NCBI GenBank assembly: GCA_026387835.1
Contig: JAPLKZ010000007.1
Coordinates: 213,434-245,433 of the forward strand
Length of the DNA: 32,000 nucleotides
Reading direction: 5' to 3'
DNA from: Candidatus Saganbacteria bacterium
GTDB lineage: Bacteria > Margulisbacteria > WOR-1 > JAKLHX01
Shown: positions 15,700-31,366 of the stretch, in pieces
Position numbering within the stretch: position 1 is the first letter of the stretch
How the letters are laid out: every line of letters begins with the position of its first letter
Made by a program: the position numbers and the translations under genes
Notes under the pieces: generated by a model
Seen by the model: the letters and a program-made list of their open reading frames with translations, nothing else
What the model was told of the DNA's origin: nothing
Database searches by the model: none

Positions 15700-15720
15700 A
15701 TAATATATATATTTACGGGT

Positions 15721-15757
15721 CTATATATATATCGTTGTATTGAAGCTAAAACTTGCG
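15721..15757 (-). promoter_or_regulatory. sigma-28-like conserved promoter, copy upstream of the giant gene
   Basis: Minus strand: CGCAAGTTTTAGCTTCAATACAACGATATATATATAG. The motif ends 21 nt before the ATG at 15699. Confidence 0.6.
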
Positions 15758-15791
15758 GGGAATAATGGGTCATTTTTGGCTGTTTAATGGC

Positions 15792-15823
15792 AAAATAATA
15801 GCGATTTATTAGCTGATTATTTT
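15792..15823 (-). terminator. possible AT-rich hairpin terminator after the 389-aa gene
   Basis: Minus strand: AAAATAATCAGC-TAATAAATC-GCTATTATTTT. This gives an 11-bp stem with one bulge and a 3' arm ending in TTTT, starting at the stop codon. The stem is almost entirely A/T, so it is weak. Confidence 0.3.
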
Positions 15824-16992
15824 CAGGTATTTGCTTTTCTTGCTTTGTTATCTGACCCGATAGCCATTGCTATCGAACGGGCGATCTCTTCCGGTGTGTT
15901 GAGGGTTGGATAAGTTAAAACTTCATTCATTCTTTTTCGTGCGTTTGACGACGCGAAAGTTGTTTCAAGTGACTTCATAAATTCCTGTGCCCTTAAACGG
16001 ACCTTTTCCGTTATTTTTGAATCCGCTAATTTTTGTTCGTGCCTCTTCTCATATGCTGTTTCATTCTCTTTCTCATCTGCCTTTCTTGCCTCGATAATGC
16101 CGGCCAATATTCTTTTAGCCATCCTCAGAGCTGACTCGTACACTTCAGTTGCCGCAGTCCATATTTTTGTAATTATTGTTATAACTTTAGGCATGTCTGC
16201 GTCAACAGCGGTTTCGTTCTTTGCTATTTGCGGCATTTCCTTGATCGGTGTCGCTGAAATGGCGCGCATCTGCTCCAATAAAGCGGGATCAATTTTAATG
16301 TCATTTTCTGTTGCGATAGATATAAGTTTGGTTGCCTGCTCCCCGCATGCTGTGATCTCTTTTTCGATCATCGATCTGGCCGGTTGCTTGTCTTTAAACT
16401 TTTCTCGCATTGCATTAAGCATATCATTCATCTTTTTGATGGCCTCAGCATCACCAGTGATGACTATGATCACATATTGTTTATTATGGTTTTTCAGGAT
16501 TATTTCGGTCTGGACTGCGATTTGAGAATTGTAGCCGGATTCTTGAGCGTGATAAGATGATAGTAATTCTTTTAAACTTATAGAATCGTCATTATGCCCG
16601 CAATATCCCAAAAAATCCTGTTTTGATCTTCTCAATGATTGTTCTGTTCTTATTCGGTTTTCTGTTGCACCGTTATTTCCTTCACCTTCTTGTTTCCTGA
16701 AATTAAGAATGGCTTCCTGGTGTTTTTTCATTTCCGACAGATAGCTGCGACCTACGGCAAAAGGTCTCATATAGGAAATAGTGTCGATCATAAAAGAAAA
16801 ACGCTCCGTAGTCGCGAAAGGGAACTTTTCCTGTTCTTGCGTAAAAGAACCGAGTACCCTGTAAGCAGGTCTTGATAGGTCGGGAACAGGTGTAATGACA
16901 GTTCTTGGCGTTGCCGTTGTACGCGATGTTAAGCCGTTCCCGGTTTCCTGTATCTTAGGATCGGTTTTAACAAGCGCAGGATCGGGCAACAT
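15823..16992 (-). CDS. hypothetical protein (389 aa), Lys/Glu-rich helical, no signal peptide
   Basis: ATG preceded by GGAG (GGAGATAATAT-ATG) and the conserved promoter. The N-terminus is polar (MLPDPALVKTDPKIQETGNGLTSRTTATPRT). No motif recognised. Confidence 0.75.
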   Translation of the reverse strand: MLPDPALVKTDPKIQETGNGLTSRTTATPRTVITPVPDLSRPAYRVLGSFTQEQEKFPFATTERFSFMIDTISYMRPFAVGRSYLSEMKKHQEAILNFRKQEGEGNNGATENRIRTEQSLRRSKQDFLGYCGHNDDSISLKELLSSYHAQESGYNSQIAVQTEIILKNHNKQYVIIVITGDAEAIKKMNDMLNAMREKFKDKQPARSMIEKEITACGEQATKLISIATENDIKIDPALLEQMRAISATPIKEMPQIAKNETAVDADMPKVITIITKIWTAATEVYESALRMAKRILAGIIEARKADEKENETAYEKRHEQKLADSKITEKVRLRAQEFMKSLETTFASSNARKRMNEVLTYPTLNTPEEIARSIAMAIGSDNKARKANT

Positions 16993-17003
16993 ATATTATC
17001 TCC

Positions 17004-17039
17004 CTATTTATATATCGATGGTAAGATCGCGAAATTTCA
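17004..17039 (-). promoter_or_regulatory. sigma-28-like conserved promoter, copy upstream of the 389-aa gene
   Basis: Minus strand: TGAAATTTCGCGATCTTACCATCGATATATAAATAG. The spacer is 1 nt shorter and the -35 is more divergent. The motif ends 11 nt before the ATG at 16992, and the SD sequence follows it immediately. Confidence 0.5.
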
Positions 17040-17059
17040 TTATATTCTAATTTTCTTTA

Positions 17060-17356
17060 CTAAACCGGCTTATCTGGACTGAATATATTGCTTTTGTCCG
17101 GTTTCTTTGCCTGTTCAGGCGTCATTTCTTTGTCTTTAATGACAGGAAGGCTATTATTCAGTTTACCTTGGTAATAGTTTTCCACGACTGCCTGTAAACC
17201 ATTCATCACTAATTCTGGCATGTTCGCTATTGCTGCTGCCGCGCTATTTACTATATCTAATCTTGCCTGTGCCACTCTTGCCTGTCCCGGTTCGCCATAT
17301 AATTTCTGTATTGGCGGTGATCCTTGTTGTTTAGCTTGTATATATATATATGTCAT
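17060..17356 (-). CDS. hypothetical small protein (98 aa)
   Basis: ATG with AGGAG 7 nt upstream, 10 nt after the preceding stop codon. Ala-rich central helix (ARLDIVNSAAAAIANMPELV). Pro/Lys-rich tail. Confidence 0.65.
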   Translation of the reverse strand: MTYIYIQAKQQGSPPIQKLYGEPGQARVAQARLDIVNSAAAAIANMPELVMNGLQAVVENYYQGKLNNSLPVIKDKEMTPEQAKKPDKSNIFSPDKPV

Positions 17357-17366
17357 TGTTTTTCTC

Positions 17367-17630
17367 CTACACTACCCTTCCCGTTCCTTCATCCGAAGAT
17401 GCGATCCCTACTCTGTTCACAGGGAGTGGCGTCTTATCGAAGCCCGCCAATCTCTGGATATTCTTCACTGTCTCAAAGGCTCCTTTTACTTGTCCAAACT
17501 GTTTTATTGCTTCTGTCAGGCTCGCAAGAGCAAGCCATTTGCTATCCTCCGTTTTTGCCGGCACGCCACCATTGCCTTTGATTCCCGCCATAAATATTGT
17601 CCCATTGATCGGATCCATATCCATGCCCAT
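17367..17630 (-). CDS. hypothetical small protein (87 aa)
   Basis: The tracked ORF (to 17663) overlaps the upstream gene. The internal ATG at 17630 (MGMDMDPINGT) is preceded by AAGGAGG (TAAGGAGGATAATATT-ATG), which begins in the upstream stop codon. Confidence 0.6.
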   Translation of the reverse strand: MGMDMDPINGTIFMAGIKGNGGVPAKTEDSKWLALASLTEAIKQFGQVKGAFETVKNIQRLAGFDKTPLPVNRVGIASSDEGTGRVV

Positions 17631-17643
17631 AATATTATCCTCC

Positions 17644-18981
17644 TTACGATCCCCGTTGAGCATCTAGGACTGAAACGCCTCTCTTATCACTTTGCCTAGA
17701 ACCGGCCACTGTTTTACTGAAAATGTTATAATTTACCAGGTTAAAGGTATTTTCATAATAATTATCTACTGTATCCTTGAACTTTTTATTCCAGAATTTT
17801 TCGACTCCCGAGCCGCCCAGATCGATTGCAGTTTTCAGTTGTTTCAGTTTTTCCAGCCCGGACGGATCTTCATCCGTGACAAGCTGTTTTTCGACAAGGT
17901 TTATTATCTTTGCGTTTATCGCTGCGGAAAATGTATCAATTTTCACGTTCGGATCCTTGCCACTTCTTACCCGCTCAAGAAATGACTTAATAGAACCGAG
18001 GGTTTGTTTGTCTTTTTTATCATCGGACAGGTCCTCATAGACAGATATGGATAATGCTAATTTACGATGATATTTCTTTTCTTCATCAGCACCGACCTCT
18101 CTCTTAATGATCTTATCCAGCATATCGATAGACCTGTCTAATGCTTCTTCAACATGTTTTCTGCTGTAAATATCACGTTTATCTTTTGGGATCTCTCTAC
18201 CGGTTTCTGAACTTGTCCATGCGTTGATGTTCATCGCGGATTGCCTGGAATTGTTTATGTCATAGACGGTGAACGACATATGCTTCACGTATTGATTGAA
18301 CTTATCTTGGCTCATGTTCCCGGGGCCGTTCTGCATGGTTATGATCACAGTGTTCCAGAAGCCGTCGGGTGTCACGTGGTTGCGGTACACCCCATCGATT
18401 CGGTCATCTCCGTAAAAAGCATTCCACGAATAAGGGTTGAACTTTCCGAGGTTATATTTCCCGAGTAGATCATTGACCTCTTTCATTTTTATTTTACTTG
18501 ACTTGCCTTCATCTGACAGGATCGTTTTTACGCCGGATACAAGATCGGCCGCTTGTTTTTCTTCCCATCCGAAACTTGCCGCGACGATCCTTGCCTGCGC
18601 GTCAGTCGATTTTGGATCATTCCCGGAACCCATAACAGTTGAAACGGGAAAAGCTGATTGCAAATCTCTTGTTCCTGTTGTTTCTGATATTTTGGCAACT
18701 GCCGGTTTTGCAAGCGGTCTACTTGCAGTTGTCGGCTCTTCAATCGTTTTACCTGCGGTTTGAACAGCTGGTCGTGCTTCAGGTCGCGTTGCTTCTGATG
18801 CTCTTGCTTGTTTGCTTGGAGCATCATTTTGATCTGGTATTTGCTTGGCTTTTAATCCTGAAGACTTAAACAAACTTGTTATTCCCATTCCCAACCAGTA
18901 TATCGGGGTGAATTTTGCAATTCCCTCCATGTTCCTGAACATGTCACACGTTTGATCAACCCCGATTAAACCTGTACCCAT
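17644..18981 (-). CDS. hypothetical protein (445 aa): one N-terminal hydrophobic segment, Pro/Ala/Thr-rich linker, globular plus Lys/Asp-rich helical C-terminal part
   Basis: Long ORF with AGAGG upstream of the ATG. Contains FTPIYWLGMGITSLF, then ARPAVQTAGKTIEEPTTASRPLAKPAV. No motif recognised. Confidence 0.75.
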   Translation of the reverse strand: MGTGLIGVDQTCDMFRNMEGIAKFTPIYWLGMGITSLFKSSGLKAKQIPDQNDAPSKQARASEATRPEARPAVQTAGKTIEEPTTASRPLAKPAVAKISETTGTRDLQSAFPVSTVMGSGNDPKSTDAQARIVAASFGWEEKQAADLVSGVKTILSDEGKSSKIKMKEVNDLLGKYNLGKFNPYSWNAFYGDDRIDGVYRNHVTPDGFWNTVIITMQNGPGNMSQDKFNQYVKHMSFTVYDINNSRQSAMNINAWTSSETGREIPKDKRDIYSRKHVEEALDRSIDMLDKIIKREVGADEEKKYHRKLALSISVYEDLSDDKKDKQTLGSIKSFLERVRSGKDPNVKIDTFSAAINAKIINLVEKQLVTDEDPSGLEKLKQLKTAIDLGGSGVEKFWNKKFKDTVDNYYENTFNLVNYNIFSKTVAGSRQSDKRGVSVLDAQRGS

Positions 18982-19087
18982 AATACCTCTTTGTCCGTTC
19001 CCCTAAATATAAATCATAACTGCGTCTACAGTCATAGCGGTCAGATCAAAAGATCTAAATATTTTCATTTGACAGCTCTGCCCAATA

Positions 19088-19291
19088 TCAAGCAATACTT
19101 ACCTTTGAAAAATCTCTTACAGCTTGCTCCAATTGACCCATTGCAACTCTTATTGTGGATTCATCTATAGCTGCTTTCGTTATTCCTTTGTCAAGTTGAC
19201 TCCTAGTTTTCATGCTTGCTTGAGATACTTCTGCTGGTGTTTCCTTGGCAGCCGACTTTGTTTGTCCAACTCTTTGTGTTGCTTCAACCAT
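19088..19291 (-). CDS. hypothetical small protein (67 aa)
   Basis: ATG preceded by AAGGGAG, with the conserved promoter directly upstream. Predicted to be helical. No motif recognised. Confidence 0.6.
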   Translation of the reverse strand: MVEATQRVGQTKSAAKETPAEVSQASMKTRSQLDKGITKAAIDESTIRVAMGQLEQAVRDFSKVSIA

Positions 19292-19305
19292 TGTTTTTCT
19301 CCCTT

Positions 19306-19342
19306 CTATATATCTATCGTATCAAATATATGCAAAATTGCA
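19306..19342 (-). promoter_or_regulatory. sigma-28-like conserved promoter, copy upstream of the 67-aa gene
   Basis: Minus strand: TGCAATTTTGCATATATTTGATACGATAGATATATAG. The motif ends 14 nt before the ATG at 19291 (AAGGGAGAAAAACA-ATG). Confidence 0.6.
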
Positions 19343-19352
19343 TGGAATTTCA

Positions 19353-20393
19353 CTATTTACCTAAAATATCAAATATCATGTGTTTTAACCAGTTTTCGAC
19401 TTCTTGATCCCCCTGTCCGTCCAATGTCTTGTTTAACTCATCCACCGACGTATTCACCTTATCTATTTTGTCATTTATTTCGTTTGTCCCTGCCTTGCCG
19501 CTGCTGATGCTGCCTTCTATTTTTTCCAGAGATGTATTGATCTCGAGAATTTTGCCCAACCTCATTTCCATCGAAAGGTTGTTTGAGGCAGCTACTATGG
19601 CCGCTATCATTTTCATGTCATCCAGTTTCTTAATTAGGTTTTTTATGGACTTGGCTGCATTCTGCAGTTCCATTGTCTTTTTCTTATAAAACTCTTTGTC
19701 AAGTTCTTTTTGCTCCTCGTTTAATTGTCTCCGCTGTTCTATGATATTTTCTGAAATTCTATTGCAGGACTCCATGCAGGTGTTTATTGCCTGCGTTAAA
19801 TAGTCTTCATTTATACCGAATAATACTCCGCCATCAATTATATCTTCTATACTTCCGTCTGTTTCATCGTCTGATGTCTGGTCATCAAACTGTGCGACGT
19901 TGATCTCCCCGTTTATATTATTTATTATATTTTTTATATTTTCCTGGGCTTTTTCTTCTGTGAGCTGGCACGCGAATTCCTTCAAGACAGCATTTGCGTT
20001 GCCGGGTTGGCCTTGTTTGCCGGGTATGTTGCCGATCACTCTGATCCAAGCGTTATCTTTATTAAACTTGCCGTTTCGAAACAATATTTCGACATCTTTT
20101 ACTTTCCCATAAGAGGCCCTTTTTATCTCCAAGTAGGCCGATAATGCGAGGTTTGCCTGATTTTTATCGGCAAAATTTGTTTTGTTTAAAAATGCTTCAA
20201 GTTCTGCCCTGTTTTTTATTCCGCTGTCTTTTAGTTTGCCGTCATTTAGATTTTTATCTTTCATCCAATTTGAGACGATAGCGCCTGTTTTGCTGCGGTC
20301 AGCATTGGGAATATCTTGACCTGTTGCCTGCGTTTGATTTTGATTTAATATCTTAGTTTGATCTATTTGTTTGTAATCTACTTGAAAAACCAT
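19353..20393 (-). CDS. hypothetical protein (346 aa), C-terminal coiled-coil-like
   Basis: The ATG lies 1 nt after the upstream stop codon (GGAGGCATAAC-ATG). The N-terminus is Asn/Gln-rich. The C-terminal half is rich in heptad-like Ile/Leu/Lys/Glu/Asn. Confidence 0.75.
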   Translation of the reverse strand: MVFQVDYKQIDQTKILNQNQTQATGQDIPNADRSKTGAIVSNWMKDKNLNDGKLKDSGIKNRAELEAFLNKTNFADKNQANLALSAYLEIKRASYGKVKDVEILFRNGKFNKDNAWIRVIGNIPGKQGQPGNANAVLKEFACQLTEEKAQENIKNIINNINGEINVAQFDDQTSDDETDGSIEDIIDGGVLFGINEDYLTQAINTCMESCNRISENIIEQRRQLNEEQKELDKEFYKKKTMELQNAAKSIKNLIKKLDDMKMIAAIVAASNNLSMEMRLGKILEINTSLEKIEGSISSGKAGTNEINDKIDKVNTSVDELNKTLDGQGDQEVENWLKHMIFDILGK

Positions 20394-20394
20394 G

Positions 20395-22041: not shown

Positions 22042-22055
22042 TTCATTTCCCCCGT

Positions 22056-22262
22056 TTAAGAGATCCTGTGGTTCTTATCTTTCAGCTTCCTGATCTCGGC
22101 GGCGATCTTAGACTGTTCCGCGACCGCTTTTTTGATAATTTTTTCGAGCGTCTTGTTGTGCATTTCAAGGCGGCGTTCCGCCTTTATCAAAAAAGCGTTT
22201 ATCTTGATAAGTTTTAGGGCCAGGTCGCCCCTTGATAACCTGTCCTGTTCCTGATCCTGCAT
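22056..22262 (-). CDS. hypothetical small coiled-coil protein (68 aa)
   Basis: The tracked 124-aa ORF overlaps the upstream gene by 151 nt. The internal ATG at 22262 (MQDQEQDRLSRGDL) follows the upstream stop codon by 17 nt and has a strong SD sequence (TGAAAGGGAGGGAACGCGCG-ATG). Confidence 0.55.
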   Translation of the reverse strand: MQDQEQDRLSRGDLALKLIKINAFLIKAERRLEMHNKTLEKIIKKAVAEQSKIAAEIRKLKDKNHRIS

Positions 22263-22279
22263 CGCGCGTTCCCTCCCTT

Positions 22280-23103: not shown

Positions 23104-23140
23104 CTATATATCTATCGTAATTGAAAAGTACAAACTTGCA
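23104..23140 (-). promoter_or_regulatory. sigma-28-like conserved promoter, copy upstream of the 255-aa gene
   Basis: Minus strand: TGCAAGTTTGTACTTTTCAATTACGATAGATATATAG. Its 3' 15 nt are identical to those of the copy at 19306-19342. Confidence 0.6.
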
Positions 23141-23204
23141 TAAAAAAGAAGTAATTAATTTACTCAATGAGGCCAAATATATGCTATCGGCATTTAGTTG
23201 CAGA

Positions 23205-26200
23205 TTATTTGGATTTTTGTTTGGATCCGCTTTGTCTTTGTTGCGCGATTTTTTTCATCAAAGCAGAGAATGAGGCGTTATTTTGTTGCTTCTTATCATT
23301 TTCCTGCTTTGCCGCGGTTTTTTTGTCATCCCTCTCGTCATCTTCCTTCTCTTTTTTGCCTTCTTTGTATTCTTGCATCTTCCTTTCGTACTCTCTATGC
23401 TTCTGGGAGTTGACTATATTGTTTCCCATTAACTCATTCATAAAGCCGTATGTTTCAGCTTCATACAGTGCTCCGACCTCATGCGTCATCCAAATATATT
23501 TTGAGGCCTGGACGGCAGTCCAGCCATAATCCTGTATACCACCCGGATTATCATACCCTCCATAGGCATTAATTGTTCCTCTCCAGAAATTAGCCTTGGC
23601 ATATTCGCCCATTTCGACATTTATTCGGACCATTGCAGAATTCAGATTCATAACGTTCAAATTATTTATTTGTTGTCCGATCGAATAAAAATGATGCTGT
23701 CCGCTTAGATATCCGTAACCTTGCTTATCCGATGAAGAAGCGTAATGAACATATCCGTCGTAAGGAGGATTGCCTCCTCCCCAATAATTCGTATAAACAT
23801 TATTTATTATGTCCGAAGGTTTGCTGCCATATGGGTGTCTTGCATCATCATAATTTATATTATAAGAGTAACGAGATGCTCCTGCCGGAGCCAAATTGGA
23901 GTTGTCGTCTTCAAATACTCCGATATTTGAAATGAAATTACCAGCTGTGGTATCCCATGACCTGCCCCCCCAAAATGAAGCAGGCTGCCGCGAGTGTGTT
24001 GCTGTGGAAGTATCGGTATACGTCAATTCACCTTTGAATTCATCGAAGGCCGGATCCATATATGTCATGTATTTGTTGATCTTAGTCGCGTAGTCACGCA
24101 ATTTAGCAGCATCCATTGTAGCACCAGTAGTACTTGTTGTTACCGGTGTTGTTACTGGCGTTGTTACTGTTGTCACTCTGCCAGTAACAGGATCTGTTGT
24201 TGTTGTTGTTGTATATGTTGTTACATCTGTTGTCGTGGTTGTGGTTGTCTCGGCAGGCGGCAGGTCTGCAGTAAGAGCGTCCATGGCGGTCTTGACGCCG
24301 ATCCAATATCCTCCAGCAGGAGAAGTATCTGGTATCCATACTTGTTTATCCGCATCAAGATAATATGTTGATAGTTTAAGCTCGTTTTTATTAGCTCCAT
24401 AATAAGTTATAAAAGCATTGACGTTGGTTGTATATGTGTTATAGGTATCTTTTTGTTCTTGTGTTGGAGGAGTTGTAGAAGGTGTAAATACGCTTGCGCC
24501 GGCACAACCAGAGCTTGTGTATTTATCATGCAAAGTTTTCATCGGAGAATTGTTATAATAATTTGTAAGATTTGTGCTCAGCCAGCTTCTGAAATTGGAA
24601 AGCCTGTAGTAATCGGTCGTGGAATACCAGCCCCCACCCAAACTATTCCCACTCATGGGACCGAAGTCCATGATCCACTGGGAAAGCCTGTGCTGCGCCA
24701 GTGAGAATGTCTGCAGAAACGTCTTGTTGTAATCCCCGGATTCCTTCCCTGTCCAGGGATCAGCTGAACTTTCGGTATCCCCCCTGTGATAGTCGCCCAT
24801 CCATTTATCAAAGCTCTTGATCATGGCGTTGTCGAGCGAACCATTATAAGTTGTAGTCGGCTTGTCATCAGAAGCGCCATTATATATATTATTTAAGCCG
24901 ATATTTTGGCTATACCAGCTCATATTGTAATATTGTGAATGCGGGCCGAAGAGCTCGGTCATCCCCGCAAAATACCTTCTCCGCGATTCAAGTAATAACA
25001 CAGCTATATTGAATGCGGCTTGGGACTCAAAATTTGGCTCTCTCCCTGTCGTCCACCAAGAATCTTCAGAACAATTATTTGGGTTGGTATATGCTTTATC
25101 CCCATATCTGTTATCAAAATTCCACGGGGCGCTCGGGTCCATCGCAAGCTCATAAAACGAAGGGGCACCCACCTTATATTGGTCGCCGTTGAATTTGGAA
25201 TAATCCGTGTTCGATGAATACCCGTTGAAAAATGATTCCGCGTTGGTAAATGAACTTGAATAGTCCGCCAGATTTGGAAGGTCGAGTTTTGAAAGCTCCG
25301 TTCCGGAGGGCCCGTCCCAATTTCTGAGCATGGCAGGGTTCGAACCGTAGAAGAAGTTGTTGTAATCGACCGGATGATAATTGTTTATTGTAGTTTTATA
25401 ATCCCCGCCCGAATTATTCAAAAGATATGTATATTGGTCTGTCGCGTCTTCCGAAGCCGCATATACGGGAAATGCTGTAGCAACTATAGATCCATCGTTT
25501 CTCATGCCATAGGCAGTTTGGTTTTTTGAAAGGTCTCCTTTTCCGACAAGAAAATCAACTCTTGTATCGGTTTCTTTAACTGGATTGAAATCCCAGAATG
25601 CTGGTGTAAAGTTAAATGGGAATTCTGATCCTTTTCCTGCTCCGAGAAAGTCAACTACGCCATCATCTGATGATTGGGAATGCCTTTTTCCGAAACCCGG
25701 CTGACCAACGGGATCATGTTGCGGGCCGGACCCCAGCTTGTCCCATATCGCTGATGCTAATTTGTTTTTATCATAATCGGATAATCCCCCATACCAGCGT
25801 GAAAACTCTTCTCCAGCTATCAATTCATCCTTATAAACCCTATAAATTTGATTTTTATACTTTTGAACGTTTAAGAGGCCGTTGCTATCAAGATAACCCA
25901 AATTTTTCAAGGCGTTAAATAAATCCGTGCCATGTCGTTCAAAACCAGCACCAGAGCAGGCGTCAGTAAAATCAGAACCTGTAAAAATTGTAGTAAACGG
26001 ATGGCCAGCTGTTGTATTTACATTTGTACTTGTGCAAAACTCATATGGCGCCCATGTTCCATCCTCATAGTTAGATGAATATATCTCTGATTCTGCGCGC
26101 GGGATGAACTTCATCATGTTAAGCAGGAAATTGTACCTGTTACTCAGCCATCTCTTGCCGCGCGGCGTGGTCTCATTATAAAGCAAATTCTCGAGCCCGT

Positions 26201-26270
26201 ATTCCGGAGTTTCTGACGAGATGGGGAGCCACATCTGCGGCTTGATCTCTAGAGGATTGTCGTAACTCAT
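23205..26270 (-). CDS. hypothetical large protein (1021 aa): Trp/Tyr/Asn/Gly-rich, poly-Thr linker, Lys/Glu/Asp-rich tail
   Basis: Uninterrupted 3 kb ORF with no signal peptide (MSYDNPLEIKPQMWLPISSE). Thr-rich tract TTTTTTDVTTYTTTTTTDPVTGRVTTVTTPVTTPVTTSTTG at about nt 24127-24252. No catalytic motif recognised. Confidence 0.85.
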   Translation of the reverse strand: MSYDNPLEIKPQMWLPISSETPEYGLENLLYNETTPRGKRWLSNRYNFLLNMMKFIPRAESEIYSSNYEDGTWAPYEFCTSTNVNTTAGHPFTTIFTGSDFTDACSGAGFERHGTDLFNALKNLGYLDSNGLLNVQKYKNQIYRVYKDELIAGEEFSRWYGGLSDYDKNKLASAIWDKLGSGPQHDPVGQPGFGKRHSQSSDDGVVDFLGAGKGSEFPFNFTPAFWDFNPVKETDTRVDFLVGKGDLSKNQTAYGMRNDGSIVATAFPVYAASEDATDQYTYLLNNSGGDYKTTINNYHPVDYNNFFYGSNPAMLRNWDGPSGTELSKLDLPNLADYSSSFTNAESFFNGYSSNTDYSKFNGDQYKVGAPSFYELAMDPSAPWNFDNRYGDKAYTNPNNCSEDSWWTTGREPNFESQAAFNIAVLLLESRRRYFAGMTELFGPHSQYYNMSWYSQNIGLNNIYNGASDDKPTTTYNGSLDNAMIKSFDKWMGDYHRGDTESSADPWTGKESGDYNKTFLQTFSLAQHRLSQWIMDFGPMSGNSLGGGWYSTTDYYRLSNFRSWLSTNLTNYYNNSPMKTLHDKYTSSGCAGASVFTPSTTPPTQEQKDTYNTYTTNVNAFITYYGANKNELKLSTYYLDADKQVWIPDTSPAGGYWIGVKTAMDALTADLPPAETTTTTTTDVTTYTTTTTTDPVTGRVTTVTTPVTTPVTTSTTGATMDAAKLRDYATKINKYMTYMDPAFDEFKGELTYTDTSTATHSRQPASFWGGRSWDTTAGNFISNIGVFEDDNSNLAPAGASRYSYNINYDDARHPYGSKPSDIINNVYTNYWGGGNPPYDGYVHYASSSDKQGYGYLSGQHHFYSIGQQINNLNVMNLNSAMVRINVEMGEYAKANFWRGTINAYGGYDNPGGIQDYGWTAVQASKYIWMTHEVGALYEAETYGFMNELMGNNIVNSQKHREYERKMQEYKEGKKEKEDDERDDKKTAAKQENDKKQQNNASFSALMKKIAQQRQSGSKQKSK

Positions 26271-26314
26271 TGCTTGATGTTCACCTTTTTATTTATTATT
26301 AAAGGGACTTCGCA

Positions 26315-26638
26315 TTATCCGATCAGCTTTGAAACCGAATCCTGGAATGATCCCTGTTTTGTAAGCAGGTCCATGGCCATGGTGTTGATCGACTCGAGCT
26401 GGCTGGTATACCTGTTGATGACGAATAAAGCTGCTGCGGAACTTTTGTCGTCAAGTTTTATGCCGTTTATCTCAATGGACTTTGTGGTCGGGTCCGCCAT
26501 TTCCATCGACACCTTATTCAGCGCATCGTACAAATAAATAAAAAGGTTCTTGAAACCGAATGATGTGGTAGAAAGATTCCCTGGTTTTGCCTGGGCACTT
26601 GATATAGAAAGCTGATCATTTATAGAGTCGAGTACCAT
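26315..26638 (-). CDS. hypothetical small protein (107 aa)
   Basis: ATG preceded by AAAGGAG. Polar N-terminus, C-terminal amphipathic helix (AALFVINRYTSQLESINTMAMDLLTKQGSFQDSVSKLIG). Lies 44 nt upstream of the 1021-aa gene. Confidence 0.65.
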   Translation of the reverse strand: MVLDSINDQLSISSAQAKPGNLSTTSFGFKNLFIYLYDALNKVSMEMADPTTKSIEINGIKLDDKSSAAALFVINRYTSQLESINTMAMDLLTKQGSFQDSVSKLIG

Positions 26639-26668
26639 TTCATTCTCCTTTAACGTCTTTCATGTTGC

Positions 26669-26703
26669 CTTTTTATCTATCTTAAGGGGTGCCCCGTTTT
26701 GCA
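26669..26703 (-). promoter_or_regulatory. weaker variant of the conserved promoter upstream of the 107-aa gene
   Basis: Minus strand: TGCAAAACGGGGCACCCCTTAAGATAGATAAAAAG. The -10 reads AGATAG instead of CGATAG, and the spacer is 2 nt shorter. It overlaps a GGGGTG...CACCCC inverted repeat. Confidence 0.35.
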
Positions 26704-26742
26704 AGACACCCCTATATCCTTGTTCTCTCAAGCTATACCCGA

Positions 26743-27042
26743 TTAACCTTTTGCATCCCTCAGAGCGTTCTTCTGCATCGTCTGTTTTTCTTTTTCGGCT
26801 ATTGCATCCGCTGAGCTTTTTACTTCTGTTCTGGCTGCCGCTGTTCCTATCACGAACAATTGCGCTGCTCCCACTTCCGTTCCTTTGCCTAATGTGATGT
26901 GCAGATTATTGCCGTTGTTGTCATACAAGTTCGGAAGCATTACGTCTGTCGGTGCATTGGCTACCATCGCACATGCTACATCTTCTATCCCTTTGTCATT
27001 TGCGATCAGATCTGCTACGACTCCTGCTATTGAGTTTGTCAT
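26743..27042 (-). CDS. hypothetical small protein (99 aa)
   Basis: ATG preceded by GAGAGGGGGTG, and it has its own copy of the conserved promoter. No motif recognised. Confidence 0.65.
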   Translation of the reverse strand: MTNSIAGVVADLIANDKGIEDVACAMVANAPTDVMLPNLYDNNGNNLHITLGKGTEVGAAQLFVIGTAAARTEVKSSADAIAEKEKQTMQKNALRDAKG

Positions 27043-27084
27043 CTTTTTTCACCCCCTCTCGTTTATTACTTCGTCATCGCCTTT

Positions 27085-27121
27085 CTATTTACTTATCGGT
27101 AACCGCCTGGGAATTCTTGCA
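27085..27121 (-). promoter_or_regulatory. sigma-28-like conserved promoter, copy upstream of the 99-aa gene
   Basis: Minus strand: TGCAAGAATTCCCAGGCGGTTACCGATAAGTAAATAG. The -10 reads CCGATAA. Confidence 0.55.
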
Positions 27122-27144
27122 TGGAATATTGCGTTAAATATAGC

Positions 27145-28902
27145 TTATGGCTGAGCATATTTCAGCATGGCCTTTGCTATCGCATCCAGCTTCTGCGGTA
27201 TGAGCGTCAGAGCCTGGATCGTGGTCTCTATGATGTTGCTTGACTGCCCTACCTGGAACAGCTCGCTAGCGTCAAGTCCGTCCGAAGCGTCAATATAAAC
27301 GCCCAGACCCGGAAGATAGACACTGGCCGATTTGCCGGCCAGGCCCCTTGCCACATCGTTATTCTGCGTATCGAGGGCCAGTACCCTCTGGTATATGCCG
27401 TAGATCATATTTTGGCCCTGAGAAATTAAGCTCCCGCTTGTAGTAGTAGGTAAAGGATTCAAACCGTAAGGATTGGCCGCCACCAGTTCAGCAAGCGTCA
27501 TTACGCCGTCATTGGTAAGGGGCGTTGCCAAAACATTAACTCCATCTCTCATCCAGTTCCATCCGAGAAGATTCTGAGAGTTAACGATTCCGGGTGCAGG
27601 ACTAGTTCCAATAACCGAGCTCCATTCCGTGGCAAAATCGATCACTCCGTCGCTATTCGTATCCGTAAGCGCGAACATGAATTTGTTGATATCAATTGTA
27701 TTATCACCGCTGTTAAGATATGAATAAAGGCGGCTTAATGTTCCGGTAAGATTTGTAATCGGAAGGTTTGATCCTACCCAGTCGCTCATACTTATTTTCC
27801 CGTCGCCATCCACGTCAATCGCTCCAAAATCCGCGGAAGTAAATATGCCCTGGTTCCAATTGGCTCTGTTAGTGTTGTTTATGTTAACATGTATATTCCA
27901 ACGACTTAAAGTTATATCCGCATCGGTACCTCTTATATCGTCGAACATTTGATCTGATTCTGCGCGTGTCTTATTTATTCCGAGCGTGCTGACAAAGTCA
28001 TACAATTCATCTTTGGAGATCTTCATGTCTCCATTGGCATCTAACATCGTAAAATCAGCACTTGATACCTGATCGCTATTCCAGGTATTTTTATAGAAAG
28101 TGTTTATTGTGTTAGTAAAGGCCAGATTTTGAGCTATGGTCGGGCTTGCTGCTAATGGAATTATTTTTGCTGTTCCAAGTGCCAGATTTGCATTCGAGTT
28201 TGTAAATCTGGTTATATTAGCTGCCGTGATCCCTAAACTGGTCAATGTGGAATTTTTTATGCCTCCGTTCCCGTTTGCGTCCAAGGACGATCTGAATATC
28301 CTTACTATATCGGCTAAGCCATAATTTCCGCTGTTAAATCTTGCTGCGTCAGCCACAAAGGCATTCAACCCTTGCGCGTTAATTACATATCCACCTGCTT
28401 CGCTTCTTGCTGCAAGATAATTGAATAATGTCGTATTAGCATGTAAAGGGTTAGTTGTAGCGGCCCATTCGCTTGCGTTAATTACCCCGTCATGGTTCGT
28501 GTCTATCGTAGTAAAGTCCATGTTGGTAAATAAACCTGCGACAGTCAATTTAGGAAGTTGATAAGAAGTCCATTCGTCTCTGGTTATCTTAAGATCATCG
28601 GAGGTTATATTTGTCCCTGTATGTTTTAGGGGATTGGCTACAGTATTGAATGATGTGGCAATATTTGAATTTGTCGTACCAACCCTGTAATCACTCGGAT
28701 CAATGTTGTTGCTGCTAAGATACGCTTTGAATCCGTTCTCGGTTACTATTCCGTCTTGAAATCCGTCGGCACTGTCCATGGCATCAAAATCCGCGGCTGA
28801 CATGAATTGATCTGCAGTCGCAGTAGTAAAATCAGAACAATCTACAGTTGTTCCTGTATCACTGCCGTCTGTTATTGTTACCGGATTTTGAATCGCTGCC
28901 AT
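27145..28902 (-). CDS. EF-hand-loop (calcium-binding-type) repeat protein, 585 aa, no signal peptide
   Basis: Three canonical 12-residue EF loops: DTNHDGVINASE (nt 28468-28503), DANGDMKISKDE and DVDGDGKISMSD. There are also degenerate copies (DSADGFQDGIVTE, DANGNGGIKNST, DTNSDGVIDFATE). Each is preceded by an (A)DF-x-x-(I/L/M) motif. Confidence 0.8.
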   Translation of the reverse strand: MAAIQNPVTITDGSDTGTTVDCSDFTTATADQFMSAADFDAMDSADGFQDGIVTENGFKAYLSSNNIDPSDYRVGTTNSNIATSFNTVANPLKHTGTNITSDDLKITRDEWTSYQLPKLTVAGLFTNMDFTTIDTNHDGVINASEWAATTNPLHANTTLFNYLAARSEAGGYVINAQGLNAFVADAARFNSGNYGLADIVRIFRSSLDANGNGGIKNSTLTSLGITAANITRFTNSNANLALGTAKIIPLAASPTIAQNLAFTNTINTFYKNTWNSDQVSSADFTMLDANGDMKISKDELYDFVSTLGINKTRAESDQMFDDIRGTDADITLSRWNIHVNINNTNRANWNQGIFTSADFGAIDVDGDGKISMSDWVGSNLPITNLTGTLSRLYSYLNSGDNTIDINKFMFALTDTNSDGVIDFATEWSSVIGTSPAPGIVNSQNLLGWNWMRDGVNVLATPLTNDGVMTLAELVAANPYGLNPLPTTTSGSLISQGQNMIYGIYQRVLALDTQNNDVARGLAGKSASVYLPGLGVYIDASDGLDASELFQVGQSSNIIETTIQALTLIPQKLDAIAKAMLKYAQP

Positions 28903-28932
28903 TATTTTCTCCGATCAGCCGTTCTTTATTCT

Positions 28933-28969
28933 CTATTTATCTATCGGAACGGTTTTCATGTAACTTGCA
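28933..28969 (-). promoter_or_regulatory. sigma-28-like conserved promoter, copy upstream of the 585-aa gene
   Basis: Minus strand: TGCAAGTTACATGAAAACCGTTCCGATAGATAAATAG. The motif ends 30 nt before the ATG at 28902. Confidence 0.6.
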
Positions 28970-28979
28970 TAGATATTGA

Positions 28980-29258
28980 TCATCTTTCAAGAAACCCGTT
29001 TTTCCTTTCCGCCGATTCAACCCTGCCTATGAGATCAAATACGGTATCAGTCTTGCTATACGAACCTTTTTCCTGCTTATGTCTTTTTATATCACTCTTG
29101 TCCTTGCCTGCGTTCTTTGACACGGGAGCCAGGAACCCGAACCCGGCGTTCTTGACCGCTTCCAGAAAAGCGCCCGAGTTGGCTGCCGGCCGGCTCGTAC
29201 TGTGGTTTTTCCCCGCATCGACGGAATTGGATGAAAAATATGGGTTGATGATGTTCAT
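28980..29258 (-). CDS. hypothetical small protein (92 aa), basic
   Basis: Third gene of a tricistronic unit, 9 nt after the upstream stop codon. No motif recognised. Confidence 0.55.
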   Translation of the reverse strand: MNIINPYFSSNSVDAGKNHSTSRPAANSGAFLEAVKNAGFGFLAPVSKNAGKDKSDIKRHKQEKGSYSKTDTVFDLIGRVESAERKNGFLER

Positions 29259-29267
29259 GGTCTTATC

Positions 29268-29474
29268 CTATACGACAACATTCAATGTCATGTTCTTATT
29301 GAAAAGCATGTTCACATCTTCAGAATTCACGGCTGGATTTGTTTTTTCAGCACCCGCCACGTTGGTCCCCGCATTATTACCTTTCAGGAATTCCTGCGCG
29401 GTCTGCTCGTATGCGTCCCGCAGCTGGGTCGCGAGGCCTTTTGAACCTTGATTTACCGGTTGTCCTTGCGTCAT
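29268..29474 (-). CDS. hypothetical small protein (68 aa)
   Basis: The ATG directly abuts the upstream TAG (AAATAG-ATG), with GGGGAG inside the upstream gene serving as the SD sequence. No motif recognised. Confidence 0.55.
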   Translation of the reverse strand: MTQGQPVNQGSKGLATQLRDAYEQTAQEFLKGNNAGTNVAGAEKTNPAVNSEDVNMLFNKNMTLNVVV

Positions 29475-29657
29475 CTATTTATTACTCCCCTGTTTTAAAG
29501 CGTCTTTTATGACATCCAATTCGGGGGTTGACACTTGAATATTGCTCATGACCGGAAGCGAAACGTTCGTGTTTGGCGAGACGAAAGACATCTTCAACTC
29601 GTTCAATATCGAATTGACCTGAGCGTTAACTGTATCTATGTCTACTCTTGCCGCCAT
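29475..29657 (-). CDS. hypothetical small protein (60 aa)
   Basis: ATG preceded by GAGGAAACAATA, with the conserved promoter ending 11 nt upstream. No motif recognised with confidence. Confidence 0.55.
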   Translation of the reverse strand: MAARVDIDTVNAQVNSILNELKMSFVSPNTNVSLPVMSNIQVSTPELDVIKDALKQGSNK

Positions 29658-29668
29658 TATTGTTTCCT

Positions 29669-29705
29669 CAATATATTGTTCGTTCTATATGACGTAAAAC
29701 TTGCA
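29669..29705 (-). promoter_or_regulatory. sigma-28-like conserved promoter, copy upstream of the 60/68/92-aa tricistron
   Basis: Minus strand: TGCAAGTTTTACGTCATATAGAACGAACAATATATTG. The -35 is a good match, while the -10 is more divergent (CGAACA). Confidence 0.5.
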
Positions 29706-29711
29706 GTGTTT

Positions 29712-29843
29712 TCAATTGCCGCTCACCGCCGGCTCTTCCTTTTTCGCCTCGGACTGCTTCTCCGCTTCCGAGATGACCTCCATGATCGCCTCGATGACCT
29801 TCTCGTCGCACCATTCCGGGAACTCCAATTTACAATTATCCAT
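29712..29843 (-). CDS. possible unannotated 43-aa acidic small ORF (MDNCKLEFPEWCDEKVIEAIMEVISEAEKQSEAKKEEPAVSGN), potentially leaderless
   Basis: Found by hand translation, because it is below the 60-aa cut-off of the ORF track. Its ATG lies 2 nt after the 3' end of a conserved promoter copy, and there is no SD sequence. The peptide looks helical and protein-like. There is no other support. Confidence 0.3.
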   Translation of the reverse strand: MDNCKLEFPEWCDEKVIEAIMEVISEAEKQSEAKKEEPAVSGN

Positions 29844-29845
29844 AT

Positions 29846-29882
29846 CAAGTAATTTATCGGAACATCACGGTATTAACTTGCA
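29846..29882 (-). promoter_or_regulatory. sigma-28-like conserved promoter, most upstream copy (drives the small ORF or a short RNA)
   Basis: Minus strand: TGCAAGTTAATACCGTGATGTTCCGATAAATTACTTG. The -10 reads TCCGATAA. It lies 177 nt upstream of the copy at 29669-29705. Confidence 0.55.
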
Positions 29883-31363: not shown

Positions 31364-31366
31364 GGC

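What the first reader, a model, noticed from the sequence alone, without database searches (positions are those of the whole stretch)
15721..29882. Nine copies of a 35-37 nt bipartite promoter, yATGCAAGTTt-N12-nnCGATAGATAwATAG, resembling sigma-28/FliA/SigD promoters
Seen directly: the motif occurs on the minus strand at 15721-57, 17004-39, 19306-42, 23104-40, 26669-703 (weak), 27085-121, 28933-69, 29669-705 and 29846-82. Every copy lies in an intergenic gap, is oriented with the genes, and ends 2-56 nt before a start codon. In three cases the Shine-Dalgarno sequence follows the motif immediately. The transcription start must therefore lie in the conserved AT-rich 3' part, and the leaders must be very short.

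Established knowledge: the enterobacterial FliA consensus is TAAAGTTT-N11-GCCGATAA, and the B. subtilis SigD consensus is TAAA-N15-GCCGATAT. Here GCAAGTTT aligns with TAAAGTTT, and (T/A)(A/C)CGATA(G/A) aligns with GCCGATAA across a 12-nt spacer.

Inference: the block is transcribed by a group-3 sigma-28-family sigma. The conservation downstream of CGATA (GATAwATAG) goes beyond the classical -10 box. It may be a discriminator or initiation element, or a second regulator's site.
Basis: partly seen in the sequence, partly recalled or inferred. Interest (0 to 1): 0.85.

Follow-up and report, generated by a model that had tools for sequence, protein, structure and literature searches.

The report
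Sigma-28-like promoters driving orphan genes
Nine near-identical 35-37 nt promoters of the flagellar sigma-28 type drive a 23-kb block of genes of unknown function in an uncultured Saganbacteria genome. The factor most likely to read them is an unusually short FliA-like sigma that this phylum encodes at the end of its flagellar operons.

Summary
Nine copies of (a)TGCAAGTTT-N14-CGATAGATAWATAG lie at exactly the stated coordinates. All are on the minus strand, all are in intergenic gaps, and all point at the next gene. The site at 26669 is weak.

The window is from a Candidatus Saganbacteria MAG. The block at 6376-29843 holds about 18 genes with almost no database matches, including a 3107-aa giant.

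The invariant core across 24 sites is AA(G/A)TTT, exactly 14 nt, CGATA, then a G 13 nt after the C of CGATA. By Pseudomonas fliC geometry that G is +1. The full consensus recurs in other Margulisbacteria: before a giant-gene homologue only 22% identical, before two sigma operons, and before a fliK-to-flhA flagellar operon.

The likely reader is a 193-203 aa sigma that is 64-83% identical across the phylum. Its best matches are FliA/WhiG, but it has no sigma-3 domain. It is usually the last gene of the flagellar export operon. The lack of sigma-3 matches the unconserved 'GC' of GCCGATAA.

The sigma-28 reading is largely right. However, the sigma is not a canonical group-3 factor and I could not show it in this genome. 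No transcription data exist. This is a new variant of a known kind.

The parts
15721..15757 (-). Promoter site 1: CGCAAGTTT-N14-CGATATATATATAG. The predicted +1 is the G at 15721. It drives the 3107-aa giant gene.
   Evidence: (33.5 bits). The same promoter type precedes homologous giant genes in L010 and L028.
6376..15699 (-). Giant gene of 3107 aa (an alternative call gives 3070 aa, starting at 15588). It is the last gene of the block.
   Evidence: The family has 44 representatives among 1.84 billion proteins, at 20-28% identity. There are no Pfam, PDB or PHROG matches above threshold.
17004..17039 (-). Promoter site 2: TGAAATTT-N14-CGATATATAAATAG, with GGAG immediately after. It drives the 389-aa gene at 15823-16992.
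   Evidence: (29.6 bits). It belongs to the 'TGAAATTT' subtype that dominates in L039.
19306..19342 (-). Promoter site 3: TGCAATTTT-N14-CGATAGATATATAG. It drives the 67-aa, 445-aa, 87-aa and 98-aa genes (19291 down to 17060).
   Evidence: (35.5 bits).
23104..23140 (-). Promoter site 4, a perfect consensus: TGCAAGTTT-N14-CGATAGATATATAG. It drives the 252-aa, 68-aa, 548-aa and 346-aa genes (23038 down to 19353).
   Evidence: (37.3 bits).
26669..26703 (-). Doubtful site 5: TGCAAAACG-N12-AGATAGATAAAAAG. Its upstream half lies in a 12-bp hairpin after the 99-aa gene. It lies before the 107-aa and 1021-aa genes.
   Evidence: 22.9 bits; hairpin -23 kcal/mol, z = -3.4.
27085..27121 (-). Promoter site 6: TGCAAGAAT-N14-CGATAAGTAAATAG. 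It drives the 99-aa gene at 26743-27042.
   Evidence: 30.0 bits.
28933..28969 (-). Promoter site 7: TGCAAGTTA-N14-CGATAGATAAATAG. It drives the 585-aa EF-hand protein gene at 27145-28902.
   Evidence: 36.4 bits.
29669..29705 (-). Promoter site 8: TGCAAGTTT-N14-CGAACAATATATTG, with a weaker -10. It drives the 60-aa, 68-aa and 92-aa genes (29657 down to 28980).
   Evidence: 29.5 bits.
29846..29882 (-). Promoter site 9: TGCAAGTTA-N14-CGATAAATTACTTG. An ATG 2 nt downstream opens a 43-aa ORF (29712-29843), so the transcript would be nearly leaderless. This is the first site of the block.
   Evidence: (28.5 bits). The same 'G-xx-ATG' layout occurs in L010, L022 and L028.
15823..29843 (-). Seventeen co-oriented genes without family assignment, apart from EF-hand motifs in the 585-aa protein. 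The nine sites divide them into transcription units.
   Evidence: The 1021-aa protein has no homologue other than itself among 5.8 billion proteins.

Best explanation
The nine elements are promoters read by RNA polymerase carrying an alternative sigma factor of the FliA/SigD/WhiG (sigma-28) lineage.

Proposed mechanism:
- Sigma domain 4 binds the -35 block (TG[C]AA[G/A]TTT, at about -36 to -28).
- Sigma domain 2 binds and melts at the -10 block CGATA(A/G), with C at -13 and the flipped A at -11.
- Transcription starts at the invariant G 13 nt after that C. This gives leaders of 3-66 nt, several of them almost leaderless.
- The AT-rich stretch between the -10 block and +1 (GATAWATA) is the discriminator and initiation region of the strongest versions of the promoter. 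It is not a second protein's site.

The most likely cognate factor is a 193-203 aa sigma confined to Margulisbacteria and Saganbacteria. It keeps FliA-like domains 2 and 4 but has lost domain 3. This would explain why the 'GC' extended -10 of GCCGATAA is not conserved here.

In related genomes that sigma gene ends the flagellar hook/export operon and is sometimes preceded by the same motif. The 23-kb orphan block would therefore be switched on together with, or downstream of, flagellar assembly.

Shown: motif, position, orientation, conservation in other genomes, sigma family, synteny.
Inferred: that this sigma reads this motif, that it exists in this genome, and the start site.
For: 1. Nine sites have fixed geometry, sit only in intergenic gaps and are co-oriented with the genes.
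2. When 24 sites from the window and 8 related loci are anchored on CGATA, the invariant positions are AA.TTT, exactly N14, CGATA, and a G at position 14. The spacer itself is unconserved.
3. The sigma-28 consensus is TAAAGTTT-n11-GCCGATAA, with CGA essential (PMC2859248). In P. aeruginosa fliC the element is (-15)GCCGATAA(-8) with A-11 flipped (PMC12784957). That numbering places the invariant G at +1.
4. Exact-pattern scans of 185,579 genomes and of JGI metagenomes returned full-consensus copies in Margulisiibacteriota contigs, with the unspecified positions also matching. In L010 and L028 the copy lies 2 nt before a giant gene that is homologous to the window's giant at only 22% identity (E = 2e-29).
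5. A relaxed regular expression finds 18 sites in 192 kb of Margulisbacteria/Saganbacteria loci, against 2.1 in shuffles. Fifteen of the 18 are in annotated gaps and co-oriented.
6. The sigma family P0002-P0121 is 64-83% identical across the phylum, with invariant 2.4 and 4.2 helices. Its best NCBIfam and PDB sequence hits are FliA/WhiG. The AlphaFold model lacks a sigma-3 bundle, and Foldseek ranks SigB, SigD, WhiG and FliA above ECF sigmas.
7. The sigma gene follows flhA directly in L033, L039, L044 and L045, and lies within 4 kb of flhA in L029 and L040.
8. The motif lies upstream of the sigma operon in L039 and L042, and upstream of fliK in L045.
9. The fab operon in the window has a textbook TTGCAA-N17-TATAAT promoter preceded by TG. 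Housekeeping promoters in this organism are therefore different from the motif.
Against: - There are no transcript data, so promoter activity and the start site are inferred.
- The sigma gene was not found in the window's own MAG. The ten NCBI sigma accessions checked do not fall in the MCX5749xxx series, and the rest of the 249-kb contig could not be reached.
- I could not exclude a separate canonical FliA in these genomes.
- None of the genes driven in the window is a recognisable flagellar, chemotaxis or motility gene. Elsewhere the motif precedes diverse genes (Memo, a methyltransferase, an FGE-sulfatase, an ORF upstream of glnA), so the regulon is broader than a classical sigma-28 regulon.
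- Several loci that carry the sigma gene show no motif within 20 kb (L033, L036, L040; in L042 only a variant).
- The L045 fliK site overlaps a TGTTATAAT extended -10 element, so that operon may also or instead use sigma-70.
- The spacing is 1 nt longer than the classical spacing.
Confidence: 0.68

Rival explanations
1. The motif is read by an unrelated extracytoplasmic-function (group 4) sigma factor. TGCAAG-N17-CGATA would then be an ECF-type promoter of the kind seen for B. subtilis SigM, SigW and SigX (TGxAAC-N16/17-CGTx, recalled from memory). The FliA-like short sigma would read something else.
For: The spacing from TGCAA(G) to CGATA fits ECF geometry, and ECF promoters are long and highly conserved. 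The candidate sigma itself has the two-domain ECF architecture and matches the generic sigma70-ECF superfamily model. Partial autoregulation and a small co-transcribed ORF are ECF-like traits.
Against: The hallmark ECF 'AAC' at -35 and 'CGT' at -10 are absent. The invariant bases are AA(G/A)TTT and CGATA, which are the sigma-28 signature. Among the loci fetched, the only lineage-wide conserved sigma seen has FliA-type 2.4 and 4.2 regions and sits in flagellar operons. No ECF/anti-sigma pair lies in or next to the block.
Confidence: 0.13
2. A canonical full-length FliA (with sigma-3), encoded elsewhere in the genome, reads the motif. The short sigma next to flhA would be a paralogue with another specificity.
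For: The motif is close to the classical consensus. Published surveys list flagellins and FlgV (which is co-conserved with sigma-28) in Margulisbacteria (PMC7018530, PMC11607428). I could not survey whole genomes.
Against: The extended -10 'GC', which canonical sigma-28 reads and which is needed for activity when both bases are mutated (PMC12784957), is not conserved in any of the 24 sites. In four independent contigs the position after flhA, where fliA/sigD normally sits, is occupied by the short sigma. No other sigma gene appeared in about 190 kb of flagellar or sigma neighbourhoods.
Confidence: 0.1
3. The elements are ordinary sigma-70 promoters whose AT-rich 3' part (TAGATA / TATATA) is the -10 hexamer. 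On this reading, TGCAAGTTT is the operator of a dedicated activator or repressor.
For: The 3' part contains TATAAT-like hexamers, and the simple sigma-70 scan picks up overlaps at 29698-29670, 19353-19325 and 17024-16995.
Against: The best-conserved -10-region bases are CGATA and the terminal G, not the TATA-like stretch, which degenerates in L039, L029 and L045. No TTGACA-like element lies 17 nt upstream of those hexamers. The upstream block is not palindromic or repeated as operators usually are. The sigma-70 scan is near background (43 found against 30 +/- 5.4 expected). A true sigma-70 promoter in the same window looks quite different.
Confidence: 0.05
4. The block is a mobile or viral island with its own transcription machinery, and the motif is the promoter of an element-encoded polymerase. 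The 3' end ...ATAG|GGAGA resembles T7-type promoters.
For: The block consists of orphan genes with uniform strong promoters. There is a superficial TATAG-GGAGA resemblance at sites 17004 and 19306.
Against: There is no match to phage genomes or PHROGs and no motif hit in 2.9 million viral contigs. The block shows no polymerase, integrase or repeat boundaries, and its GC content is like that of the flanks. The motif occurs next to housekeeping and flagellar genes in other genomes. The bipartite layout with an unconserved 14-nt spacer is typical of sigma factors.
Confidence: 0.03

Closest known systems
Sigma-28 (FliA / SigD / WhiG) class promoters, consensus TAAAGTTT-N11-GCCGATAA
   Same: Both are bipartite. 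The -35 core AAGTTT and the -10 core CGATA(A) are shared, and the spacer sequence is unconserved. The predicted start lies 7-8 nt after the -10 block. The motif is associated with flagellar operons in related genomes, and sits upstream of the sigma's own operon in some.
   Different: The spacing from AAGTTT to CGATA is fixed at 14 nt rather than 13. The 'GC' extended -10 is not conserved. The upstream T of TAAA is replaced by TG(C). The +1 G is invariant, and in the strongest sites the whole discriminator (GATAWATA) is conserved. The genes driven in this window are orphans, not known late flagellar genes.
FliA/WhiG family sigma factors (NCBIfam TIGR02479; PDB 1RP3, 6PMI, 9WSF, 6PFV)
   Same: For the candidate sigma these are the best sequence matches and among the best structural matches, in both domain 2 and domain 4 (for example LSESQVSRI against VSESRVSQL). 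The gene sits after flhA, as fliA/sigD does in many bacteria.
   Different: The candidate is about 45 residues shorter. About 57 residues that correspond to domain 3 are replaced by one helix plus a disordered linker. It scores 72-74 bits against a cut-off of 189.6. A conserved 66-83 aa ORF without FlgM similarity precedes it.
ECF (group 4) sigma factors and their promoters
   Same: The candidate sigma has a two-domain (sigma-2 plus sigma-4) architecture. The promoter is long, information-rich and highly conserved. A small partner ORF is co-transcribed. There is occasional autoregulation.
   Different: The promoter lacks the AAC and CGT signatures. The sigma's sequence is closer to group 3 than to any ECF model. 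The partner ORF has no recognisable anti-sigma domain.

Membership tests
Sigma-28-dependent promoter class | -35 element related to TAAAGTTT | tested here: met
   AA(G/A)TTT is invariant in 23 of 24 aligned sites; the exception is site 26669. The consensus is taken from PMC2859248.
Sigma-28-dependent promoter class | -10 core with the essential CGA (CGATAA) | tested here: met
   The CGA triplet is present in 23 of 24 sites (1.7-1.9 bits per position), and the full CGATA in 21. 26669 has AGATA, 29669 has CGAAC and L031 has CGACA.
Sigma-28-dependent promoter class | Extended -10 'GC' immediately upstream of CGATAA | tested here: not met
   The two positions before CGATA carry 0-0.5 bits and read ta, aa, tc, ca, ac and so on.
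Sigma-28-dependent promoter class | Spacing: N11 between the octamers, which is 13 nt from AAGTTT to CGATA | tested here: not met
   The spacing is fixed at 14 nt in all sites once anchored on CGATA. This is one base longer.
Sigma-28-dependent promoter class | Transcription start about 6-8 nt downstream of the -10 octamer and dependent on the sigma-28 holoenzyme | not testable with these tools
   No RNA data are available. The invariant G falls at +1 by P. aeruginosa fliC numbering, which is consistent only.
Sigma-28-dependent promoter class | Regulon includes flagellar or chemotaxis genes | tested here: inconclusive
   One site lies upstream of fliK at the head of a flagellar operon in L045, but it overlaps a sigma-70-like extended -10. 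The window's genes have no flagellar family hits; the only traces are sub-threshold FliG_M and FlaC matches. No flagellin, flgM or motAB locus of the phylum could be fetched.
FliA/WhiG sigma family (candidate cognate sigma) | Reaches the family model's trusted score (TIGR02479, 189.6 bits) | tested here: not met
   The score is 72.4-73.7 bits. It is nevertheless the top-ranked specific family.
FliA/WhiG sigma family (candidate cognate sigma) | Three-domain architecture: sigma-2, sigma-3, sigma-4 (group 3) | tested here: not met
   Pfam finds only r2 and r4. Only 40 residues lie between the matched domains, against 97 in FliA. The AlphaFold model shows one helix plus a low-confidence linker.
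FliA/WhiG sigma family (candidate cognate sigma) | Encoded within or at the end of flagellar gene clusters | tested here: met
   L033, L039, L044 and L045 have it directly after flhA. L029 and L040 have it within 4 kb of flhA. L031, L036 and L042 do not.
FliA/WhiG sigma family (candidate cognate sigma) | Present in the genome that carries the window | tested here: inconclusive
   The ten NCBI accessions checked do not belong to the MCX5749xxx series of this MAG. Logan members carry no accession. The contig could not be walked.
ECF (group 4) promoter and sigma | -35 'AAC' and -10 'CGT' signatures | tested here: not met
   The motif has AAGTTT / AAATTT and CGATA instead. The ECF consensus is recalled from memory.
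ECF (group 4) promoter and sigma | Sigma with only domains 2 and 4 | tested here: met
   By sequence, however, the candidate is closer to group 3.
Sigma-70 housekeeping promoter | TTGACA-N17-TATAAT | tested here: not met
   The motif's conserved bases do not fit this pattern. A true example lies upstream of fabG in the same window.
Phage single-subunit RNA polymerase promoter | A contiguous promoter of about 23 nt plus an element-encoded polymerase | tested here: not met
   The motif is bipartite with an unconserved spacer. There are no polymerase, phage or viral-contig matches.

The most novel reading that the evidence does not exclude
Margulisbacteria and Saganbacteria have replaced, or supplemented, the classical flagellar sigma-28 with a domain-3-less derivative. 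This sigma reads a longer, more rigid promoter (AARTTT-N14-CGATA-N8-G, with no extended -10 and a fixed +1 G). The phylum has recruited this flagellum-coupled switch to drive large islands of lineage-specific orphan genes, including 1-4 thousand-residue giant proteins without signal peptides. These may be substrates of the flagellar export apparatus, or a new cell structure built in step with the flagellum.
Probability: 0.3. Interest if true: 0.72.

Novelty: new variant of a known kind. Interest (0 to 1): 0.55.

Why it matters
No promoter or sigma regulon appears to have been described for Saganbacteria or Margulisbacteria, an uncultured sister group of the Cyanobacteria; two full-text searches found none. 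This motif gives a ready-made, highly specific marker (about 27 bits) for a co-regulated gene set in these genomes. It assigns a regulatory context, probably coupled to the flagellum, to a 23-kb island of genes that are otherwise complete orphans.

The candidate reader is a FliA-type sigma that has lost domain 3, and its promoters have correspondingly lost the extended -10 'GC'. That makes it a natural experiment on how sigma domains map to promoter elements, and on how two-domain sigmas can arise from group-3 ancestors. All of this is directly testable with recombinant sigma and E. coli core polymerase, without culturing the organism.

Tried and rejected
1. Phage or mobile-element origin. Megablast of 15000-24000 against 50,697 phage records gave no match. 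PHROGs gave none except one marginal hit. The motif was absent from viral contigs. Rejected.
2. Pfam on all block proteins gave only EF-hand/dockerin in the 585-aa protein and sub-threshold FliG_M, MgtE_N and FlaC hits. No sigma, anti-sigma or polymerase is encoded in the block.
3. A homologue search with the 1021-aa protein returned only itself. A search with giant residues 300-1100 returned nothing in the word-indexed database (a wasted search). The exhaustive HMMER search did find 44 distant giants.
4. Walking the 249-kb contig failed. The 370-aa flank protein is not on record, and the RpiB look-up gave only 10-kb Logan contigs.
5. Tying a sigma gene to the window's MAG by accession series did not work. 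None of the 10 NCBI sigmas is from the MCX5749xxx series, and Logan-only members carry no accessions.
6. The simple sigma-70 and terminator scan of 14000-32000 was close to background and uninformative.
7. A stop-to-stop ORF mask to quantify intergenic enrichment overcalled coding sequence. I used the gene calls returned with the loci instead.
8. The small ORFs upstream of the sigma gene have no FlgM or other Pfam match at E <= 1.
9. Literature searches for Saganbacteria plus flagell* or sigma found nothing relevant on promoters.
10. Of the 12 genome-scan hits, 10 are in unrelated taxa (Okeania, Streptococcus, Bacteroidales, Poribacteria and others). That number is about what I estimated by hand for chance matches to an 18-base pattern, and I treated them as chance.

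Full report
OBSERVATION

The nine sites exist exactly where stated, all on the minus strand. A two-block weight matrix with a variable spacer recovers them at 22.9-37.3 bits. It finds nothing on the plus strand, and only one other weak hit, inside the giant gene (10851-10885, 13.9 bits). Shuffled windows give 0-3 hits at 12 bits or more. Because the matrix was built from these sites, the independent checks matter more. CGATAGATAWATAG with up to 2 mismatches gives 8 hits against 0.48 expected. The full bipartite pattern gives 1 hit against 0.00 expected.

All genes in the window are on the minus strand. Nine of the eleven intergenic gaps of at least 40 nt between 15700 and 29912 carry a site, always pointing at the next gene. 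Site 26669 is weak. It has AGATA instead of CGATA and a 12-nt spacer, and its upstream half is part of a stable 12-bp hairpin that follows the 99-aa gene.

CONTEXT

The 1021-aa protein is annotated in NCBI as a hypothetical protein of a Candidatus Saganbacteria MAG (NTZ10_03765, MCX5749345.1, on a 249-kb contig).

The flanks are ordinary genes:
- On the left: a glycosyltransferase/TPR protein, two FabF genes, a FabZ-like gene, ACP and FabG, plus an acyltransferase gene on the plus strand.
- On the right: a sugar-phosphate nucleotidyltransferase, RpiB and GlnA.

Between them, 6376-29843 holds about 18 genes. None has a Pfam family, except EF-hand/dockerin-type calcium loops in the 585-aa protein. 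There are no PHROG, PDB or phage-genome matches. GC content is similar to the flanks. The proteins lack signal peptides and are hydrophilic, often coiled-coil or low-complexity.

The last gene encodes a 3107-aa giant. An exhaustive search of 1.84 billion representatives finds only 44 relatives. Most are 1-4 thousand residues long (range 425-4184), at 20-28% identity.

ANATOMY OF THE MOTIF

I aligned 24 sites on CGATA: 9 from the window and 15 from related loci. The invariant features are as follows:
- AA(G/A)TTT, preceded by TGC or TG.
- Exactly 14 unconserved bases.
- CGATA, usually followed by A or G.
- A G at the 14th position of the downstream block, which is 13 nt after the C.

The 'TGAAATTT' form at 17004, which seemed to have a 13-nt spacer, is in the same register. 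The stretch GATAWATA between CGATA and the G is strongly conserved in the window and in full-consensus copies elsewhere. It degenerates in weaker sites (L039, L029, L045), while the final (T)AG or GG persists. Total information is about 27 bits.

COMPARISON WITH SIGMA-28

The published consensus is TAAAGTTT-n11-GCCGATAA. The CGA is essential, and in E. coli aer the start lies 6 bp after the octamer (PMC2859248). In the P. aeruginosa fliC open complex the element is numbered (-15)GCCGATAA(-8). A-11 is flipped out, and the GC at -15/-14 is an extended -10 read by a conserved arginine (PMC12784957).

Applying that numbering here puts the C of CGATA at -13 and the invariant G at +1.

There are two differences from the classical class. 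The spacing from AAGTTT to CGATA is 14 nt rather than 13, and the two bases that should be 'GC' are unconserved.

With +1 at the G, leaders are 3-66 nt. Three sites have the Shine-Dalgarno sequence right after +1 (17004, 19306, 29669). Site 29846 has the ATG only 2 nt after the G, as do L010, L022 and L028, so those transcripts are nearly leaderless.

CONSERVATION ELSEWHERE

An exact-pattern scan of one genome per species (185,579 genomes) gave 12 hits, about what I estimated by hand for chance matches to an 18-base pattern. Two of them are in Margulisiibacteriota MAGs and also match at the unspecified positions (ccaTGCAAGTTT...). A scan of JGI metagenomes gave seven loci, five of them with full consensus. 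Viral contigs gave none.

In L010 and L028 the promoter lies 2 nt before the ATG of a giant gene (at least 1831 aa, and 1997 aa). That gene is homologous to the window's giant at only 22% identity (E = 2e-29). The promoter is therefore far better conserved than the protein it drives. No other block protein has a detectable homologue in those loci.

A tenth site lies about 1 kb beyond the window's right end. It reads TACAAGTTT-N14-CGATATATCAAATG and precedes a 48-aa ORF upstream of glnA (L019).

A relaxed regular expression finds 18 sites in 192 kb of Margulisbacteria/Saganbacteria DNA, against 2.1 in shuffles. By the gene calls supplied with the loci, 15 of the 18 are intergenic and co-oriented. 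These include six in the 20-kb locus L039.

THE LIKELY SIGMA

L013 happened to carry a sigma gene 6 kb from its motif copy. Searching with it found 321 relatives of 193-203 aa. The 120 listed are 63-83% identical to the query, and every one but one that carries a taxon name is from Margulisbacteria, Saganbacteria or WOR-1. In an alignment of 32 members the region 2.4 helix (RLKGSMQDYLRK) and the 4.2 recognition helix (LSESQVSRI) are essentially invariant. This fits an invariant promoter.

The best specific family is FliA/WhiG (72-74 bits), but that is far below the 189.6-bit cut-off. The best PDB sequence matches are FliA and WhiG in both domains, with 40 residues between the domains instead of 97. 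The AlphaFold model (pLDDT 74) shows sigma-2, one helix, a disordered linker and sigma-4, with no sigma-3 bundle. Foldseek ranks SigB, SigD, WhiG and FliA above ECF sigmas.

The gene is the last in flagellar operons of the form fliK - flgD/E-like - fliM - fliN - fliO - fliP - fliQ - fliR - flhB - flhA - [69-73 aa ORF] - sigma in L033, L044 and L045. It follows flhA in L039 and lies within 4 kb of flhA in L029 and L040. This is the classical position of fliA/sigD.

The motif precedes the sigma operon in L039 (9323-9356) and, as a variant (AAATCT-N14-CGATAT), in L042. It precedes fliK at the head of the operon in L045 (97-130), although there it overlaps a TGTTATAAT element. In L029, L031, L036 and L040 the sigma operon instead has a sigma-70-like promoter.

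Loss of domain 3, which in sigma-28 contributes to reading the extended -10, matches the missing 'GC' in the promoters. This link is an inference.

WHAT REMAINS UNSHOWN

- I could not reach the rest of the window's contig or show that this MAG encodes the short sigma. I also could not exclude an additional canonical FliA.
- No flagellin, flgM or motAB locus of the phylum could be fetched, so the classical late-gene test is missing.
- Several loci with the sigma gene contain no motif within 20 kb.
- There are no transcription data.

RIVALS

- ECF-type sigma. The architecture fits, but the signature bases do not.
- A separate canonical FliA. This is possible, but the promoters lack 'GC' and the fliA position is taken by the short sigma.
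- Sigma-70 plus a regulator. The conserved bases are the wrong ones, and the window's fab operon shows what a housekeeping promoter looks like here: TTGCAA-N17-TATAAT preceded by TG.
- An element-encoded polymerase. There is no evidence for one.

VERDICT

The promoter interpretation is very likely correct. This is a new variant of a known kind. It is of moderate interest in itself, and of more interest for what it drives: a large island of orphan genes including a giant-protein family.

Noticed in passing
L019 2408-2444 (about 1 kb beyond the window's right end; equivalent to window coordinate ~32962-32998): A tenth motif copy, TACAAGTTT-N14-CGATATATCAAATG, precedes a 48-aa ORF that lies directly upstream of glnA-rpiB-nucleotidyltransferase. 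The regulon may therefore extend to housekeeping genes next to the island.
   Followed up: partly
window 6376-15699 (-): The 3107-aa protein belongs to a very rare family of giants: 44 representatives among 1.84 billion, ranging from 425 to 4184 aa. The conserved region (about aa 330-1050) contains hydrophobic, membrane-like segments. There are sub-threshold FliG_M (aa 3008-3077) and MgtE_N (aa 1744-1788) matches. Two gene callers disagree on the start (3107 aa versus 3070 aa).
   Followed up: partly
window 23205-26270 (-): The 1021-aa protein has no homologue other than itself among 5.8 billion clustered proteins. It contains a long Thr/Pro-rich linker (…TTTTTTDVTTYTTTTTTDPVTGRVTTVTTPVTTPVTTSTTG…) and a lysine/glutamate-rich tail.
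   Followed up: no
window 27145-28902 (-): The 585-aa protein has several EF-hand/dockerin-type calcium-binding loops but no signal peptide.
   Followed up: no
window ~5505-5545 (-), upstream of fabG (4761-5513): A textbook sigma-70 promoter, TTGCAA-N17-TATAAT preceded by TG. It shows that housekeeping promoters in this organism are canonical and unlike the motif.
   Followed up: partly
window 26685-26713 (-): A 12-bp GC-rich hairpin (-23 kcal/mol, z = -3.4) lies right after the 99-aa gene. It overlaps the '-35' half of weak site 26669 and is probably a terminator or attenuator between two transcription units.
   Followed up: partly
window 23050-23101 (-), 26642-26665 (-) and 27066-27077 (-): Tiny ORFs begin 3-7 nt after the predicted +1 of sites 23104 (17 codons: MNIRALMLFWPALLYNG...), 26669 (MKDVKGE) and 27085 (MTK). 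These may be leaderless leader peptides or coincidences.
   Followed up: no
L029 9782-10000, L031 9782-9997, L033 9779-10000, L039 9773-9985, L045 8705-8914: A conserved 66-83 aa ORF (motif P.G[IV].P[IV]L[RK]RFW) always immediately precedes, and is translationally coupled to, the short sigma gene. It has no Pfam or FlgM match. It is a candidate anti-sigma or partner. In L036, L039 and L042 a further 87-125 aa conserved ORF precedes it.
   Followed up: partly
L042 83-9000 (-): Another run of at least seven consecutive genes without any Pfam hit lies divergently next to the sigma operon in a 53% GC relative. It shows no copy of the motif, so orphan islands near this sigma do not all use it.
   Followed up: partly
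L033 10592-11545: Downstream of the sigma gene, tRNA genes are embedded in tandem repeats of GGCTTATGGCTTATAGCTTATAGCTTATGGCAGAGAAGAGAAAGTT.
   Followed up: no
L008 1893-1929 (+), Streptococcus infantis: A perfect-looking copy (TGCAATTTT-N14-CGATAGATATATAG, 36.9 bits) occurs in an unrelated Firmicute. I assumed it is chance, because the total number of hits in the genome scan is about what chance would give.
   Followed up: no
L025 413-504 (-) and L027: Two motif copies lie in tandem 20 nt apart (TGAAATTA... and TGCAAGTTT...) upstream of a small membrane-protein ORF on a 35% GC metagenome contig.
   Followed up: no
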